Below are positions 20,567 to 55,511 of a stretch of DNA of 64,000 nucleotides, one piece after another. The notes below the pieces were generated by a model, which did no database searches, was not told the origin of the DNA, and was given only the letters and a program-made list of their open reading frames with translations. Location of the stretch: positions 14,012,001-14,076,000 of the forward strand of contig NC_091995.1 in assembly GCF_044704955.1 (NCBI RefSeq). The letters are read 5' to 3'. The position numbers and the translations under genes were made by a program. Within the stretch, counting starts at the first letter, position 1. Every line of letters begins with the position of its first letter. The DNA comes from Pristiophorus japonicus (lineage: Eukaryota).

Positions 20567-20947
20567 TTATTTGCAGCTGGTGTATTTGGTGACCGCTTTC
20601 GTCCCCTCGGAGACGGCGTGCTTGGCCAGCTCCCCCGGGAGCAGCAGGCGGACAGCGGTCTGAATCTCCCGGGAGGAGATGGTGTGCCGCCGGCTGTAGT
20701 GGATCAGGCGGGAGGCCTCGCAGGCGATGCGCTCGAAGATGTCGTTGACGAACGAGTTCATGACACTCATGGCCTTGGAGGAGATGCTGGTGTCGGGGTG
20801 AACCTGCTTCAGCACCTTGTAGATGTAGATGCTGTAGCTCTGCTTCCTGGACTTCCTGCGCTTCTTCTCGCCTTTGACCCGTTGTTTGGAGACCACTTTC
20901 TTTGGCCCCTTTTTAGGCGCTATGCCCTTTGACACTGGCTCAGGCAT
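20567..20947 (-). CDS. H2B: Histone H2B variant 1 (126 aa)
   Basis: Intronless, intact histone fold ([10 protein letters not shown]...[23 protein letters not shown]), stem-loop and octamer promoter. Confidence 0.96.
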
Positions 20948-23254: not shown

Positions 23255-23641
<387 letters not shown>

Positions 23642-34930: not shown

Positions 34931-35341
34931 ATGCCGACTGTTGCTGCTGTTTCCACCAGTTCCACCGTCGCCAGTGCCAAAGGCGCCGTCTCCAAGAAGG
35001 GCTCGAAGAAAACCGCCATGAAAATGACCAGAAAAGGCGACAGGAAATACCGGAAGAGCAGGAAGGAGAGCTACAGCATCTATATCTACAAGGTGCTGAA
35101 GCAGGTCCACCCCGACACCGGCATTTCCTCCAAGGCAATGAGTGTCATCAACTCGTTCGTCAACGACATCTTCGAGCGCATCGCCTGCGAGGCTTCCCGC
35201 CTGATCCATTATACCAAACGGCAGACCATCTCCTCCCGGGAAATCCAGAGCGCCGTCCGCCTGCTGCTGCCGGGGGAGCTGGCCAAGCACGCCGTCTCCG
35301 AAGGGACCAAGGCGGTCACCAAATACACCAGCTCCAAATAG
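34931..35341 (+). CDS. H2B: Histone H2B variant 2 with extended N-terminal tail (136 aa)
   Basis: ATG 34931 ([27 protein letters not shown]...), intact histone fold and stem-loop. Confidence 0.95.
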
Positions 35342-37631: not shown

Positions 37632-38285
37632 ATGGCCGACACTCTCCGTGACAGGAGCACCCGGAAGAAGAGGACCAGAGCCCCGTCGTCGGCCAGGAGA
37701 TCCGTGTCCCAGCGGATCCTGGAGGCGGTGGCGACCACCAGGGAGCGCCGGGGCTTGTCGCTGGCGGCTCTCAAGAAGGTGCTGTCGGCCGGCGGCTACG
37801 ACGCGGAGAGAAACAACTGGCGGGTCAACAAGGCGGTCCGCAGCATGGTCACCAAAGGCTCGCTGCTGCAGGCCACCGGCACCGGCGCCTCGGGCTCCTT
37901 CAGGCTCGGCAAGATGCAGGGCGACCAGCCCCACCCGGCGGCGGGGGAGCAGCAGCAGAGGGAGGAGAAGCCCAATAGGGTTGCCGCCGCCCGGGAGAGG
38001 GGGAAGAGGAAGAGGCAACGCGCGGCTCGCCAGCCCGCCAGGAAGGCGGCGCCCAGGGGCAGAGGCTCACCCAGGAAGATCAAGAAAGGCGCCGCCGCCA
38101 GGAAGGGGGCGAGGAGGGTCGCCGCCCGCAAGCCCAGGGGGAAATCCGGGCTGGGGGCGAAAGGCAAGCGCCAGCGTACAAGGCCGAGAAAGTTGGCCAA
38201 GCGCCCGGAGTTGGAAGCCGACCAACCCCCCGGGGCTCAGGAGATCTCCCACTCGGAGAAAGAAAGCCAGGTTTGCTTGGAGTAA
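37632..38285 (+). CDS. H1: Linker histone H1-like A, Arg-rich with acidic C-terminus (217 aa)
   Basis: GCCATGG start; winged helix (SVSQRILEAV...ERRGLSLAALKKVLSAGGYD...VTKGSLLQATGTGASGSFRL); stem-loop; upstream CAGGTCC (37505) and TTAAATA. Confidence 0.92.
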   Translation: MADTLRDRSTRKKRTRAPSSARRSVSQRILEAVATTRERRGLSLAALKKVLSAGGYDAERNNWRVNKAVRSMVTKGSLLQATGTGASGSFRLGKMQGDQPHPAAGEQQQREEKPNRVAAARERGKRKRQRAARQPARKAAPRGRGSPRKIKKGAAARKGARRVAARKPRGKSGLGAKGKRQRTRPRKLAKRPELEADQPPGAQEISHSEKESQVCLE

Positions 38286-46985: not shown

Positions 46986-47372
46986 CTGGCTTGTTAGATT
47001 GTGAGGTGATGTGGATGTATAGTTTTCCCATTGAGTGTTTTGTCTGAGGCTATAAGAATTAGCGTCCGTTGTGCTGGTTCCTAACGCTACAAGAATTGTA
47101 GAATGAGTCAGTACTATTGCTACAAGAAGTGTCGAAGCTCACGAAATCAACGTTACGCTGGGCCAGCAAGCTGCATTTGGAATTGAGTCATTTTCTGCAT
47201 TGAGTTGAGGCAATTTGTTTTTCAATTTAGCAACAGTCAGGGGGATTAATCCAACCATGGCTCTACTGCGTCGGTCTTGAGCCTTTAAATAGAAATGCAG
47301 TATCGCCTCCTGCAACCTTGGGGCGGGGGGGACGGGAGGATTGGCTCGCCTCAGTCTCAGCCCAGTCCAGCC

Positions 47373-47870
47373 ATGCCCAAGGTACGCAGAGCCGGCGCAG
47401 GTGCAGATGCAGATGCCGGGGCTGTCGCTAGCCCTGCCGCGCCCAAGAAGGCGGGCGCCCAGCCCCGGCTCCGGCGCCAGCAGCGCAAGAAAGAGCTGCG
47501 GGTCTCGCAGATGATCCTGCAGGCGCTGTCGGCCCGCAAGCAGCGCGGCGGCCTGTCGCTGGCCTCGCTGCGCAAGGTGCTCCTTGCCAACGGCTACGAC
47601 GCTCAGAAGAACCAGGCCCGCGTCCAGCTGGCCATCAGGAGCCTGGTGAACGACGGCTCGCTGGTGCAGACCCAGGCCACGGGCTCCTTCAGGCTGAACG
47701 AGGGGCGAGAGCGGCAGGCGAAGGAGGGCGAGCTCCAGGCCGCCGGGGAAGCCACCCGGACCACCGGCCAGGACAAAAGCGCTGCCACCGCCGCCGCTGC
47801 CACCGCCGCCAAGAAGCCCAGAAAAAGACGCGCTGAGAAAAAAGGTAAATCCAGAAAACCTCGAAAATAA
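47373..47870 (+). CDS. H1: Linker histone H1-like B, shortened wing and short tail (165 aa)
   Basis: VSQMILQALSARKQRGGLSLASLRKVLLANGYDAQKNQARVQLAIRSLVNDGSLVQTQATGSFRL; TTTAAATA at 47284; stem-loop. Confidence 0.9.
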   Translation: MPKVRRAGAGADADAGAVASPAAPKKAGAQPRLRRQQRKKELRVSQMILQALSARKQRGGLSLASLRKVLLANGYDAQKNQARVQLAIRSLVNDGSLVQTQATGSFRLNEGRERQAKEGELQAAGEATRTTGQDKSAATAAAATAAKKPRKRRAEKKGKSRKPRK

Positions 47871-49542: not shown

Positions 49543-50442
49543 TCACCGCTTCAGGCTGACTTTCCGTGGGCGCACTGCCGGCTTCCTGGGCCTGGCGGCC
49601 GGCGACCTCCCTCGGGACTTGTTACCCGCTGCCTTCCTGCCCCGGCCGGGCTTGCACTTGCGGTAAATTCGCGCCGCCGCCCGGCCCCGGGCCGCCTTGG
49701 ATCTGAAGCGGATGCGGACGGTCTTGGCCCCGGCGGGAGAGCAGGAAGAGCGGCGCCTGCGGCGGCGCCCGTCATCGAATTTGGGCTTGCGCGGGCGTCC
49801 CCGCAGCGGCGGTGCCTGCGCCTGTCGGCGTTTGGTGGCTTTGCGCCGGGCGTAAATGCGGCGGTGGCGGGGCGGCGGCCGCTTGGAGGCGGCGGCCACC
49901 CTCTTCCGCTTGGCCGACTCTTTCTTCTCCCTCCTGGGCGTTGTTACCGCCACTGCCGGAGGCGTAGAGCCTGCGTTCGCCCCGGTGTAGGCGGCGGCAG
50001 TAGGAGGACGGGGAGCCGGAACCCCCGAGCGGTTGAACCTGAAGGAGCCCGAGGCGCCGGTGCCGGCTGTCTGCACCAGCGAGCCCTTGGTCACCAGGTA
50101 CCGCACGGTGTGGTTGACGCGGTTGTTGTTGCGGCTCACGTCGTAGCCCTTGGCCGACAGCGCCTTCTTGAGGGCGGCCAGCGAGATGCCGCGGCGCTCC
50201 TTGGTGGCGGCCGCCACCTGCAGGATCTGCTCGGTCATGGTGGGGCCCGTCTTGCTGCGGCGCTTCAGGCCGTGTTGCGGCTGCCGTTCCGGCTGCTGCG
50301 CGTTTTGCTGCTGCTGCCGCTGCTTCTTCTTCTTCTTGGCCGCCGCCGCCGCCTTGTCCGGAGTCGACCGGGACTGGGGCGGAGTCCCGCCGCCGCCCAT
50401 GCCGCCCACATCTCCCGTCTCCTCCGAGTTATTGTCAGCCAT
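49543..50442 (-). CDS. H1: Linker histone H1-like C with protamine-like Arg-rich tail (299 aa)
   Basis: GCCATGG start; winged helix (GPTMTEQILQV...KERRGISLAALKKALSAKGYDV...LVTKGSLVQTAGTGASGSFRF); TATAAA at 50608-50613; stem-loop. Confidence 0.93.
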   Translation of the reverse strand: MADNNSEETGDVGGMGGGGTPPQSRSTPDKAAAAAKKKKKQRQQQQNAQQPERQPQHGLKRRSKTGPTMTEQILQVAAATKERRGISLAALKKALSAKGYDVSRNNNRVNHTVRYLVTKGSLVQTAGTGASGSFRFNRSGVPAPRPPTAAAYTGANAGSTPPAVAVTTPRREKKESAKRKRVAAASKRPPPRHRRIYARRKATKRRQAQAPPLRGRPRKPKFDDGRRRRRRSSCSPAGAKTVRIRFRSKAARGRAAARIYRKCKPGRGRKAAGNKSRGRSPAARPRKPAVRPRKVSLKR

Positions 50443-50674
50443 GCTCGGTTATGAGTCGGGGGGGGGGAGAGGGTTTGGGTGTGCGTGTGCCGAGGCAAAG
50501 GGAGGGGGCAGACGCTCTTTTCTCTCTCGCCACTCCCTGTTCCTCCCAAGCCGCGCACCAACACGTGGCTGAAACTAACAGGCGCCAGCCCGCCGCAGCG
50601 GCCGCTCTTTATAGAGGGGAAGCGGACGGGGTGGGGCGATCGCCGCCCACCGCACATCATCATCACCCGCACCC

Positions 50675-51545
50675 TGTCTGTCCCTCTCTGTGTGTGTCTC
50701 ACTCTCTGTGTCTCTCTGTCTCTGTGTATGTGTCTCTGTCCCTGTCTGTGTGTGTTGTCTCACTCTCTGTGTTTCACTCTCTGTGTGTCTCACTCTGTCT
50801 GTGTATGTGTATCTCACTCTCTGTGTCTCTCTCTGTGTGTCTCACTCTCTCCGTGTCTTACTCTCTGTGTCTCTCTGTCTCTGTCTGTGTGTGTCTCACT
50901 CTCTGTCTCTCTCTCTCTGCCTCACTCTCTGTGTTTCACTCTCTGTCTGTGTTTGTGTGTCTCACTCTCTGTCTCATTCTCTATCTCTCTGTCTCTGTCT
51001 GTGTATGTGTATCTCACTCTCTCTCTTTCTGTGTCTCTCTCTCATTATCTATCTCTCTTTCTCTATCTGTGTATGTGTCTCACTCTCTGTGTGTCTCTCT
51101 GTGTCTCTCACTCTGTCTCACTCTGTCTCTCACTCTCTTTCTGTCTCTCTCTGTCTTTGTCTCTCACTCTCTGTCTCTGACTCTCTGGCTGTCTCTCTCT
51201 CGCTCTCTCTGTCACTCTCTGTCTCTCTCTGTCTGTCTCTGTCGCATTCTCTCTGTCTGTCTCTGTTTCTCGCTGTCTGTGTATCTCACTCTGTTTGTCT
51301 CTGTCTCTCTGTTTCTCTCTCTATCTTTCTGTCTGTATATATGTGTCTCACTCTGTCTGTCTCTCTCTCTATGTGTCTCTCTGTGTATGTCTCTCTGTCT
51401 CTCTCTGTCTGTCCCTCTGTGCCTCTCTCTCTCTTCTCTCTTCCTCTCTCTCTGTCTCTCTCTCTGTCTCTCTCTCTCTGTGCCTCTATCTGTTTCTCTG
51501 TCTCTCTCTCTGTCTTTCTCACTCTATCTCCTGCTTCTCTTCTTT
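50675..51545. repeat. Low-complexity (TC/TG)n pyrimidine-rich tract
   Basis: About 870 bp of degenerate TCTG/TCTC/TGTG microsatellite. Confidence 0.95.
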
Positions 51546-52227
51546 TTGAGTTTCTCTCTTTTACTAACCCCCGTTATTTTAATGCATGGGCTACTTGGGT
51601 AGTGGTGAAATCTTTGTCTATGGACCACTTGCATTTTTCGGCAGTCATCTCGCACCTAAAGCTACAAATATCAGTCTGGATCGACATATGAAGAGATGTG
51701 GTAATCCTGCCATCGGTGAATACTGAAGGAAGCTCATTGACAAGCGTATAATATTACAGTGGCGGATCCAACAGATGGAATTCGCTGTTCTTAGTTTGAC
51801 AGCAGTGTAAGATATTGTAGCGAAATGCTGCAGAACACACTCGAGCACATATAATGTCAATTATTATGTATTGCAGCCAAACATGTTTCTAGTCATTCTG
51901 GCTCCATCTCATTACTAGAATTTGACATTAGACAATGACGTAGATTGCTCCACTTACCAAACTTAACTTCAGCTCAGTTCGGGTCGAATTAGTTTGACCT
52001 GAGCAGCAACTTTCGAAATAATAGACGCGCATAAATCCAAGATAAGTGATGCGCAGGAAGTAAGAAACGAAACAAAAAGCAGGACATACTGGAAACGCGG
52101 TCAAGCAGCATCTACGTGGGAGAGAGAGAGAGAGAAAAAACCCAAGAGTTAACGTTTCAGAGTCGGTGACCTTGTAGCAGAATTGGAAAAAGCTAAGAGA
52201 TGTCAGAGATTTTAAACAAGTGGAGAG

Positions 52228-53066: not shown

Positions 53067-53354
53067 CTTAAAAAGGTTGGTGTAGGAAGTAGAGGAAAGA
53101 ACAAAAGGGAAAGTCTGTGAAAGGGTGCAGGGCAGGAGGGATTACGTGACAAAAGGGGTGATGGTACGAGGGAAAAGGAGATGGCCAGGGGACAAGGAGC
53201 CAAGAGGTGTTTTGTGCAAGTGAGGGGCACAAAGGTGGCGGGCCAGGGAGGGGGCGTGGCCCAGCGCCGGGTTGGCTCTCGCTCGCCCGCCTTGAGCCTT
53301 TATATAAACGGCGGCTGCCGGCGCCCCGCCACATCGCCAGGCAATCGAGCAGCG

Positions 53355-53975
53355 ATGGCTGATACCGTGGCTGCCAAAGCCGAGCTCCCGGCGCCGCCCG
53401 CTCCCGCCCTGCCGCTCGCCGCCACCAGCGCCTCGGCGCTGGCCCCTGCCGCCAAGAAGAAGGCCGCCTACCGGCCGCAGAAAGGCGTCGCCGCCGCGGT
53501 GGCCGAGCAGATCCTGGAGGCGGTGGCTGCCACCAAGGAGCGCCAGGCGGCCCCCAAGCTGGGCTCCCTGAAGAAGACCATCTCGGCCTCCGGCTACGAG
53601 CCGCCGGACAAGGCCGGCGTCCGGCCCTCCCAGTCGGTCAGTACCACGGCCAACAAGGGTTCGCCGGCGGAGAGCGGCGCCGGCACTTCCTCGACCTCGC
53701 TGCACCCGGACCGAGAGGAGGAGGAGGACGGGGGGGAAGAGGAGGCCGAGGGAGGAGAAGACGGGGCCAAAGGAGGCGCCAAGAGCAAAGGAGCCGCCAA
53801 GAAGCCGGCCCGCAAGAGAGCGGCGGCCGCCAAACCCGCCGCCCACAAACGCGCCAAGAAGCCGGCGGCCAAGAACTCCCGCAAGGGCGCGGCGGCCAAG
53901 CCCAGAAAAGCCCCCAAGAGGTCCGCATCCTCCCGGACTGGGGGGCGGAAACGACGGGCCCCGAAGAGGAGGTAG
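53355..53975 (+). CDS. H1-derived protein D with eroded globular domain and acidic tract (206 aa)
   Basis: AVAEQILEAVAATKERQ...LGSLKKTISASGYE recalls H1 helices 1-2; Lys/Ala/Pro tail; GC box at about 53251, TATATAAA at 53301; stem-loop. Confidence 0.85.
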   Translation: MADTVAAKAELPAPPAPALPLAATSASALAPAAKKKAAYRPQKGVAAAVAEQILEAVAATKERQAAPKLGSLKKTISASGYEPPDKAGVRPSQSVSTTANKGSPAESGAGTSSTSLHPDREEEEDGGEEEAEGGEDGAKGGAKSKGAAKKPARKRAAAAKPAAHKRAKKPAAKNSRKGAAAKPRKAPKRSASSRTGGRKRRAPKRR

Positions 53976-54010
53976 ACGGCCCAGCAGCGACCGAGCGTCT
54001 CAACACAAAA

Positions 54011-54026
54011 GGCTCTTTTCAGAGCC
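54011..54026 (+). terminator. Histone 3' stem-loop (H1-derived D)
   Basis: CAAAA-GGCTCTTTTCAGAGCC-ACTCA followed by AAGGAGCTG. Confidence 0.95.
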
Positions 54027-54344
54027 ACTCACATTTCCGCTATAAGGAGCTGAATCACTTCGCTGGAAAATCCCACTTTCTGTGCAATGATGCGGAGCGA
54101 ATGCGCGGCACAATTTAAATCTCACCAAATGTACATTTTATTGCAGACAAATAGTATTACTACATCCAGCTGACCAAAATAAACACGAGCGAAGCAAATG
54201 CATCAATAATATAAATAGTGCCTGCTGAGTGTCCAACCTTTTCTGTTTGTATTTTAGATTTCCAGCATCCGCAGTATTTTGGCCATTTGAAGCAAAATGA
54301 ATCAATATCTTGGCGTTTTATTTGGTGCGGATTCACACTCCATT

Positions 54345-55112: not shown

Positions 55113-55511
<399 letters not shown>

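What the first reader, a model, noticed from the sequence alone, without database searches (positions are those of the whole stretch)
53251..54050. H1-derived gene that has lost helix 3 and the wing and gained an acidic block
Seen: helices 1-2 are recognisable (EQILEAVAATKER...LKKTISASGYE). The recognition helix and wing are replaced by Pro/Ser-rich sequence (PPDKAGVRPSQSVSTTANKGSPAESGAGTSSTSL), followed by DREEEEDGGEEEAEGGED and a normal Lys/Ala/Pro tail. The ORF, TATA, GC box, stem-loop and downstream element are all intact, which argues against simple decay. Established: acidic disordered tracts in prothymosin alpha and nucleoplasmin bind and displace H1. Inference: a disordered polyampholyte acting as a self-inhibited H1, a decoy or a histone-exchange factor.
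Basis: partly seen in the sequence, partly recalled or inferred. Interest (0 to 1): 0.78.

Follow-up and report, generated by a model that had tools for sequence, protein, structure and literature searches.

The report
Shark linker histone with dismantled core
Sharks and rays share a linker-histone gene whose DNA-gripping core has probably lost its fold while its front half stays strongly conserved, pointing to an undescribed, loosely binding chromatin protein.

Summary
The ORF (53355-53975, 206 aa), TATA box, histone stem-loop and acidic block are real. But helix 3 and the wing were not replaced: they are still collinear with H1 and were disabled by substitutions (prolines at two core positions, lost aromatic and DNA-contact lysines). 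AlphaFold2 builds no helix 3 and no strands even with a 99-row alignment of mostly intact H1s. The gene is no lone oddity: 16 relatives from 11 named shark and ray species form one clade with it (100/99), in a conserved cluster of variant H1 genes. Shark-versus-ray identity is 0.88 in helix 1/loop 1 but 0.39 in the wing and 0.26 in the acidic block, so selection holds the front half. The acidic block is a shark subfamily trait, and the protein is net +24, so a prothymosin-like evictor is unlikely. Best reading: a replication-dependent-type H1 variant that binds chromatin electrostatically without dyad recognition (a poor condenser, possibly germ-line), with helices 1-2 kept for a new contact. 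Expression and function are untested. New variant of a known kind.

The parts
53251..53259 (+). GC-box-like site
   Evidence: such a match occurs in 36% of shuffles, so weak on its own
53301..53308 (+). TATA-type box, 54 bases before the ATG
   Evidence: 1.9% of shuffles
53355..53975 (+). Intronless H1-derived ORF, 206 aa (P0001). The in-frame ATG at 53181 (264-aa database form P0002) lies upstream of the TATA box and is probably not the start
   Evidence: M1 is invariant in the 14-row family alignment; GC3 0.86, CpG o/e 0.89 against a window median of 0.45
53355..53453 (+). Pro/Ala-rich N-terminal segment, residues 1-33
   Evidence: shark x ray identity 0.39
53454..53486 (+). Conserved basic patch, residues 34-44 (R40 in 17 of 17 rows)
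   Evidence: shark x ray identity 0.83
53487..53546 (+). Helix 1 and loop 1, residues 45-64; E51, A58, T60, K61, R63, Q64 in 17 of 17 rows; Q64 is family-specific
   Evidence: helix predicted; shark x ray 0.88; shark x shark 1.0 for 49-64
53556..53597 (+). Helix 2 through the GY turn, residues 68-81; core hydrophobics kept, the near-invariant Ser before helix 2 (103 of 104 intact H1s) changed to Lys in 14 of 17
   Evidence: shark x ray 0.68
53598..53708 (+). Degenerate helix 3 and wing, residues 82-118: in register with H1 but Pro91 (15 of 17 rows) and Pro104 (10 of 17) at core positions; net charge 0
53709..53762 (+). Acidic block, residues 119-136, net -11
   Evidence: shark x ray identity 0.26
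53763..53972 (+). Lys/Arg/Ala/Pro tail, 70 aa, net +29, no S/T-P-x-K/R motif
54006..54051 (+). Histone 3' stem-loop element (Rfam RF00032) ending in a purine-rich downstream-element-like motif at 54044-54051
37632..38285 (+). Neighbouring variant H1 with intact globular domain (context; synteny)
   Evidence: PF00538 63 bits; 80% identical to the first part of Pristiophorus fused model P0167; stem-loop 38338-38383
47295..47870 (+). Neighbouring variant H1, three residues short in the wing (context)
   Evidence: PF00538 53 bits; stem-loop 47910-47954
49543..50442 (-). Neighbouring Arg-rich variant H1 with intact globular domain (context; synteny)
   Evidence: PF00538 60 bits; 77% identical over 87 aa to the first part of Scyliorhinus fused model P0164; stem-loop 49437-49482

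Best explanation
A functional, replication-dependent-type H1 paralogue of a clade shared by sharks and rays, whose globular domain lost its winged-helix fold by substitution before those lineages split. Shown: gene anatomy, H1 descent, one clade, segment-wise conservation, loss of helix-3/strand core residues. Predicted: no helix 3, no wing, a mostly disordered chain with helices 1-2 able to form. Inferred: without the wing loop and helix 3 it cannot dock on the nucleosome dyad, so it binds linker DNA and chromatin electrostatically through the basic patch and the short +29 tail, condenses poorly and exchanges fast, loosening chromatin where it takes the place of ordinary H1; the conserved helix 1-loop 1-helix 2, with its hydrophobic face now unpaired, is kept for a new contact (chaperone, import factor, other chromatin protein or DNA-induced folding); the shark acidic block only lowers affinity further in cis. 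Least supported step: the setting is germ cells, by analogy with the divergent mammalian testis H1s.
For: Clade of 17 rows against 28 other H1s, 100/99 on the whole domain and on the conserved half alone. Open frames at 39-89% identity; in a neutral simulation to 55% identity the frame stayed open in 2% of 3000 runs without indels and 0 of 3000 with indels, and block 49-64 stayed at 88% identity in 0.6%. Core hydrophobics: helices 1-2 7.5 of 8 positions in 17 family rows against 7.6 in 104 intact H1s; helix 3/strand 1.0 of 5 against 4.9. AlphaFold2: helix 45-59 only with 14 rows; helices 45-63 and 69-78 only, no strands, pTM 0.18 with 99 rows, 89 of them outside the family. [quoted passage not shown] HILS1, with a divergent domain, low helicity and no S/TPXK motif, is a poor condenser (PMC6069787, passages). 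Conserved neighbours in Pristiophorus and Scyliorhinus fused gene models.
Against: No expression or biochemical evidence was obtained. No intact H1 was folded as a positive control, and overall pLDDT is low (51, 57). Helix 3 is not free-running: shark x ray identity is 0.50, above the N-terminal segment (0.39) and tail (0.42), with R90 in 13, K101 in 16 and G108 in 14 of 17 rows, so it may still do something. Relatives were found as annotated open frames through shared words, which favours intact frames and a conserved front half; three damaged relatives were left out of the 17 (P0017, P0089, P0027). No coding DNA of relatives was available, so no dN/dS. Loop 1 and the start of helix 2, which also touch DNA, are retained, so some positioned binding is possible. 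The germ-line setting rests on analogy only.
Confidence: 0.52

Rival explanations
1. Repurposed adaptor: the protein's main job is a specific protein contact made by the basic patch and helices 1-2 (for example completing a helical bundle with a helix from a chaperone or an intact H1), with the basic tail as a chromatin tether; it regulates H1 handling instead of acting as a linker histone.
For: Helix 1/loop 1 is more constant within the family (pairwise 0.87 and 0.81 over 12 rows) than among intact H1s against their consensus (0.67 and 0.73) (the intact set spans more distant taxa); hydrophobic face kept although its helix-3 partner is gone; family-specific invariant Q64, and acidic E55 in 16 of 17 where Lys is commonest in intact H1 (64 of 104).
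Against: No partner is identified; the tail, basic patch and histone-type 3' end are all those of a bulk chromatin protein; part of the helix-1 signature is shared with intact elasmobranch H1 variants, so it may be inherited and not newly selected.
Confidence: 0.2
2. It still folds into a distorted winged helix when bound to nucleosomes and acts as an ordinary, weaker H1.
For: Length and register of the domain are kept; K101, G102, G108, G110 persist; one relative (P0014, Pristis) keeps 3 of 5 helix-3/strand core residues and scores 21.3 bits on PF00538 against a cut-off of 22.4; the ESM Atlas places P0001 nearest H1 clusters (0.93).
Against: Pro at the first core position of helix 3 in 15 of 17 rows where 104 of 104 intact H1s have V/I/L; Pro in 10 of 17 where 102 of 104 have Leu; only 3 large hydrophobic residues in 82-118 and net charge 0; no helix 3 or strands from AlphaFold2 with intact H1s in the alignment.
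Confidence: 0.12
3. One reading: the acidic tract is the business end, making a self-inhibited H1, decoy or prothymosin/nucleoplasmin-like factor that strips H1 or exchanges histones.
For: The tract is real (net -11) and net -6 to -9 in the six other shark subfamily-A rows; only 5 of 104 intact H1s have 5 or more D/E in the 30 residues after the wing, and one of those reaches net -4. An acidic domain matters in Drosophila dBigH1 (PMC7192587, abstract).
Against: Weak in rays (-2 to -5) and in subfamilies B and C (-1 to -4); least conserved segment (0.26); protein net +24, whereas prothymosin alpha is -44 and binds H1 (+53) by opposite charge (PMC7661507, passages); its own +29 tail would outweigh the tract; no Pfam hit of any chaperone family.
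Confidence: 0.1
4. A decaying pseudogene, or a family of them.
For: No expression shown; no CCAAT or AC box; some relatives are damaged (Chiloscyllium P0089 lacks the domain, Mobula P0017 lacks most of helix 1); annotation bias favours open frames.
Against: Open frames in 11 named species, uneven conservation and the neutral simulation; intact TATA box and 3' element; high CpG retention (7 of 105 window bins as high); conserved neighbourhood.
Confidence: 0.05

Closest known systems
Replication-dependent vertebrate H1 (Pfam PF00538; chicken GH1, PDB 1ghc; human H1.2/H1.3)
   Same: Intronless gene in a histone cluster with a 3' stem-loop; Pro/Ala N-terminus with a basic patch; homologous globular-domain region in register; basic tail.
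   Different: No PF00538 hit; helix-3 and strand core replaced, wing aromatic and lysine lost; acidic block after the domain; tail 70 aa without S/TPxK; net +24.
Mammalian testis H1 variants HILS1 (H1.9) and H1T2 (H1.7)
   Same: Divergent globular domain, low helicity, no S/TPXK motifs; HILS1 is a poor condenser (PMC6069787, PMC7788777, passages). Functional analogue. The Atlas, with PF00538 clusters left out, listed 'testis-specific H1 histone' clusters at 0.81 and 0.78, a lead only.
   Different: Those are mammal-specific clades and orphan genes (PMC3380720, passages) and are described as keeping a (putative) winged helix; this gene has a stem-loop and sits in a histone cluster. Orthology not shown; testis expression untested.
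H1s without a winged helix in Euglenozoa and Alveolata (e.g. Tetrahymena)
   Same: Basic, largely disordered chromatin proteins without the fold (PMC3380720, PMC3834806, passages).
   Different: Those lack the domain altogether; here it is a secondary loss of fold in a vertebrate, with half the domain conserved.
Drosophila dBigH1
   Same: A variant H1 with an acidic tract that changes chromatin state (PMC7192587, abstract).
   Different: There the acidic domain is N-terminal; here it is 18 aa between domain and tail, and not conserved across the family.
Prothymosin alpha / nucleoplasmin acidic tracts
   Same: A disordered run of Glu/Asp.
   Different: No homology detected; net charge opposite (+24 against -44).
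Database 'histone H1-like' models of sharks and rays (e.g. XP_067865054.1, XP_067829857.1, XP_051899491.1, XP_038672869.1)
   Same: These are the family members themselves.
   Different: They carry only automatic names; no description of the clade was found in the searches run.

Membership tests
Linker histone H1/H5 (PF00538) | Descent from the H1 globular domain | tested here: met
   phmmer to 1ghc E=0.0044; 28.9 bits on a profile of 104 intact H1 domains; profile-profile E=5.6e-13 for helices 1-2 and 3e-4 for helix 3/wing
Linker histone H1/H5 (PF00538) | PF00538 score above the curated cut-off | tested here: not met
   0 families for P0001; 0 of 13 relatives reach 22.4 bits, best 21.3
Linker histone H1/H5 (PF00538) | Folded winged helix (three helices plus beta-hairpin) | tested here: not met
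   By prediction and residue pattern only: no helix 3 or strands; core 1.0 of 5 against 4.9 of 5. No positive-control fold, no experiment
Linker histone H1/H5 (PF00538) | Pro/Ala N-terminal segment with basic patch, and basic C-terminal tail | tested here: met
   tail shorter than the usual 100-120 aa and without S/TPxK
Linker histone H1/H5 (PF00538) | Dyad binding and chromatosome protection | not testable with these tools
   needs nucleosome assays
Replication-dependent histone genes | Intronless frame with 3' stem-loop | tested here: met
Replication-dependent histone genes | Purine-rich downstream element | tested here: met
   54044-54051, like those after the window's H4 and H2A genes; consensus recalled, no chance estimate made
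Replication-dependent histone genes | Location in a histone cluster | tested here: met
   three further H1, two H2B, H4 and an H2A-like frame in the window
Replication-dependent histone genes | S-phase-linked, non-polyadenylated transcript | not testable with these tools
Prothymosin/nucleoplasmin-type acidic H1 chaperones | Large net negative charge | tested here: not met
   net +24 against -44
Prothymosin/nucleoplasmin-type acidic H1 chaperones | Sequence homology to those families | tested here: not met
   no Pfam family matched
Testis H1 variants (H1.7/H1T2, H1.9/HILS1) | Orthology | tested here: inconclusive
   Atlas scores 0.81/0.78, under the 0.9 mark; no named H1.7 or H1.9 row was in the trees
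Testis H1 variants (H1.7/H1T2, H1.9/HILS1) | Germ-cell-restricted expression | not testable with these tools
   no expression data obtained
Pseudogene | Broken frame or neutral, even divergence | tested here: not met

The most novel reading that the evidence does not exclude
A vertebrate H1 clade that dismantled the DNA-reading half of the winged helix in the ancestor of sharks and rays and kept helices 1-2 as a partner-binding module that completes its fold in trans (on a chaperone or on an intact H1), so acting as a built-in regulator or dominant-negative of linker histones, expressed from the histone cluster itself.
Probability: 0.2. Interest if true: 0.85.

Novelty: new variant of a known kind. 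Interest (0 to 1): 0.62.

Why it matters
A 2026 review states that all metazoan H1s have a tripartite structure with a winged-helix domain (PMC13510831, passage), and domain-less H1s are cited for unicellular eukaryotes. A clade kept across sharks and rays (split roughly 250-300 million years ago, recalled) with that fold broken would be an exception among vertebrates and a natural experiment on a standing question: what H1 does without dyad recognition, and what helices 1-2 contact other than the domain's own core. The family offers a graded series (P0014 near-intact, P0001 broken, P0089 deleted; acidic block strong in sharks, weak in rays) for direct tests, and may mark a step between H1 and protamine-like proteins if it proves germ-cell specific.

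Tried and rejected
Whole genome of the window: none held, so no paralogue count and no coding DNA of relatives. Homodimer of residues 34-84 (complex prediction): score 0.02 in two runs, no verdict, alignment not used, controls not folded; neither for nor against. Fold searches with the 99-row model: Foldseek/PDB 0 matches at E<=10; VIA-align on 48161 chains best Z 2.9, generic long helices; uninformative for a low-confidence model. Idea that only this H1 has a histone 3' end (from, gathering threshold): rejected, the other three H1 genes have Histone3 matches at 25-33 bits and 6-bp hairpins. 'Replaced by foreign sequence or frameshift': rejected. 264-aa form from the ATG at 53181: rejected as likely start, since it would include the TATA box. 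Helical-moment comparison: uninformative. Members outside elasmobranchs: none among the best 150 of 170 hits of the 1.84-billion-protein profile search; the family motif occurs in 21 of the 163 proteins then held, all named ones sharks or rays, two unnamed Logan fragments; two Callorhinchus H1 variants found have intact domains. Absence in chimaeras and bony vertebrates is not proven. 'Longer' search gave one fused model only. Earlier scan findings: none. Literature searches with no description of this family in their listings; the library lacks most subscription and older papers, including early dogfish sperm-protein biochemistry; no supplements were opened.

Full report
Observation. A TATA-type box lies at 53301-53308 (1.9% of 5000 shuffles), a GC-box-like site at 53251-53259 (36% of shuffles, so weak) and a purine-rich 8-mer at 54044-54051. 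Rfam's histone 3' element matches 54006-54051 at 34.9 bits, gathering score 34. No CCAAT or AC/H1 box was found in 300 upstream bases (motifs recalled; PMC12240685, passages, says human H1.1 also lacks the H1 box). The coding region has GC3 0.86 and CpG o/e 0.89, reached by 7 of 105 window bins, median 0.45. P0001 hits no Pfam family, whereas the three other H1 frames of the window hit PF00538 at 53-63 bits. The window is a histone cluster with two H2B, H4 and an H2A-like frame; all seven other histone genes have a 6-bp 3' hairpin.

What happened to helix 3 and the wing. They were not replaced. phmmer aligns residues 47-112 to the chicken GH1 chain 1ghc (E=0.0044). For residues 84-118 alone, the family profile aligns in register with a profile of intact H1s (E=3e-4); the single sequence beats all but 100 of 10000 shuffles, and at DNA level the match to the three window paralogues is reached by 6, 31 and 141 of 1000 codon shuffles. 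The change is by substitution. Against 104 intact H1 domains (chosen by a wing motif, so the wing motif itself is not a fair comparison), the 17 family rows keep 7.5 of 8 core hydrophobic positions in helices 1-2 (intact 7.6) but 1.0 of 5 in helix 3 and the following strand (intact 4.9, minimum 4). Position 91 is Pro in 15 of 17 rows where all 104 intact rows have V/I/L; position 104 is Pro in 10 of 17 where 102 have Leu; the helix-3 basic position 96 (K/R in 97 of 104) is mostly Ser, and the wing lysine and aromatic have no counterpart. Residues 82-118 have net charge 0. AlphaFold2 gave one helix (45-59; pLDDT 51, pTM 0.13) with the 14-row family alignment and two helices (45-63, 69-78), no helix 3 and no strands (pLDDT 57, pTM 0.18) with a 99-row alignment of 10 family rows and 89 other H1s. 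No intact H1 was folded as a control.

The family. Searches returned relatives only in sharks and rays: 13, two more, and further ones from a profile search of 1.84 billion representatives, named by exact look-up: Pristiophorus japonicus, Heptranchias perlo, Heterodontus francisci, Scyliorhinus canicula, S. torazame, Chiloscyllium punctatum, Carcharodon carcharias, Mobula hypostoma, Pristis pectinata, Leucoraja erinacea, Rhinoraja longicauda. None of the 13 scanned reaches the PF00538 cut-off (best 21.3 of 22.4 bits). The nearest are Pristiophorus proteins at 86-91%, so the window is from a shark. P0001 and 16 relatives form one side of a branch against 28 other H1s with support 100/99, both on the whole domain and on the basic patch plus helices 1-2 alone (few columns); the root is not fixed and the sister group is unresolved. 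Left out of the 17: P0017 (most of helix 1 missing), P0089 (domain missing), the Logan fragments P0027/P0163, the window's own long form P0002, and P0164-P0167, found later. By eye there are three subtypes (A: P0001, P0003-P0013; B: P0014, P0016; C: P0015, P0023, P0025; the trees do not keep P0015 with the other two C rows). Fused gene models show the neighbours: in Pristiophorus P0167 the order is a 37632-like H1 (80%), a 47295-like piece and a P0001-like gene (91%), as in the window; in Scyliorhinus P0164 a 49543-like H1 (77%), another intact H1 and a family gene. Two Callorhinchus variant H1s found have intact domains.

What selection holds. Mean shark x ray identity (7 x 5 subfamily-A rows): N-terminus 0.39, basic patch 0.83, helix 1/loop 1 0.88, helix 2 0.68, helix 3 0.50, wing 0.39, acidic block 0.26, tail 0.42. 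R40, E51, A58, T60, K61, R63, Q64, K74 and S77 are present in 17 of 17 rows. In a neutral simulation to 55% protein identity the frame stayed open in 2% of 3000 runs without indels and in 0 of 3000 with them, and block 49-64 stayed at 88% identity in 0.6%. Caveat: relatives were found as annotated open frames through shared words, which favours both results, and some relatives are damaged. No dN/dS could be computed.

The acidic block. Net charge of the most acidic 18-mer after the domain: -11 in P0001; -8, -8, -9, -8, -6, -6 in the other shark A rows; -5, -3, -2, -5, -3 in ray A rows; -4, -1, -1, -2, -3 in B and C. The Pristiophorus model P0167 has a tract nearly the same as P0001's. Of 104 intact H1s, 5 have five or more D/E in the 30 residues after the wing. 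So the block is unusual for H1 and shared among sharks, but it is not what defines the family. The protein is net +24 with a +29 tail and no S/T-P-x-K/R motif; prothymosin alpha is -44 and H1.0 +53 (PMC7661507, passages). An H1-stripping role is unlikely; damping of its own DNA affinity is plausible (inference).

Mechanism. In intact H1 the wing loop and the start of helix 2 contact the dyad, and helix 3 and loop 1 the linkers (PMC8927875, passages); the domain is the primary determinant of nucleosome recognition (PMC13510831, passages), while the tail has high DNA affinity and drives condensation (PMC13060598, passage). With wing and helix 3 disabled and a short tail, the protein should bind chromatin by charge, without dyad positioning, and condense it poorly (inference), like HILS1 (PMC6069787, passages). 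The unpaired but conserved hydrophobic face of helices 1-2 suggests a new contact; no partner is identified. A germ-cell setting is an analogy with H1T2 and HILS1 and an Atlas lead under the 0.9 mark, nothing more. Confidence 0.52 for the whole chain; about 0.9 that the family is functional and 0.85 that the fold is lost (my estimates). Rivals: specific adaptor 0.2; induced winged helix 0.12 (helix 3 keeps 0.50 identity, P0014 is near-intact); acidic decoy or exchange factor 0.1; pseudogene 0.05.

Known versus new. By descent and gene anatomy it is a replication-dependent-type H1; by Pfam score and predicted fold it fails the defining winged-helix test, so I do not file it as an ordinary H1. 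Domain-less H1s are cited for Euglenozoa and Alveolata (PMC3380720, PMC3834806, passages); an acidic H1 domain is known in dBigH1 (PMC7192587, abstract); a 2026 review says all metazoan H1s have the tripartite plan. A shark-genome preprint mentions histone clusters but not this family in its four 'histone' occurrences (10.1101/2025.06.08.657570); PMC13251019 (passages) added only background on sperm proteins. Seven searches (listings only) showed no description of the clade; the library misses most subscription and older papers and no supplements were read. Databases label members 'histone H1-like' or 'uncharacterized'. Verdict: new variant of a known kind, interest 0.62. Expression remains the main gap; the only hint is indirect: models of relatives with alternative C-terminal ends, two labelled as isoforms X1/X2, which suggests but does not show transcript support.

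Noticed in passing
window 37632-38285 (+), 47295-47870 (+), 49543-50442 (-): Three further variant H1 genes with recognisable globular domains and Arg-rich tails (37, 23 and 50 Arg), each with a histone stem-loop under Rfam's gathering score. Orthologue-like proteins exist in other sharks and rays: an elasmobranch radiation of variant H1s.
   Followed up: partly
window 53291-53302 and 47276-47287: The same 12 bases run into the TATA-like box of both this gene and the 47295 H1 (seen output), hinting at shared promoter ancestry; it also puts the true start of the 47295 gene at a later ATG.
   Followed up: no
window 47295-47870; proteins P0024, P0028, P0035: Wing or helix-3 erosion recurs outside the family: the 47295 H1 is three residues short in the wing, and a separate elasmobranch H1 clade has members with progressively decayed helix 3/wing (94, 69, 58 bits against about 110 for its intact members).
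   Followed up: partly
proteins P0089 (Chiloscyllium, GCC21564.1) and P0017 (Mobula, XP_062903891.1): Relatives in which the domain is really deleted (P0089, 116 aa) or helix 1 is mostly missing and the tail is a tandem repeat (P0017).
   Followed up: no
proteins P0004, P0012, P0165, P0166: Annotated models of relatives switch to unrelated C-terminal ends near the end of the tail, two as isoforms X1/X2; may reflect spliced read-through transcripts past the stem-loop.
   Followed up: no
proteins P0164, P0167: Database models that fuse three neighbouring H1 genes into one protein (one named 'dapper homolog 3-like'); probably annotation artefacts, useful for synteny.
   Followed up: partly
window 34931-35341 (+), 20567-20947 (-), 23255-23566 (-), 55122-55511 (+): Two H2B genes 89% identical in the fold, one with a longer N-terminus; an H4 starting Met-Thr; an H2A-like frame interrupted by an N run at 55275-55430. 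Possibly variant core histones.
   Followed up: no
window 50451-51691 and many ORFs across the window: A long TC-rich simple repeat between the 49543 H1 and this gene, and many reverse-transcriptase-like ORF fragments that look like LINE remnants (class recalled, not tested).
   Followed up: no
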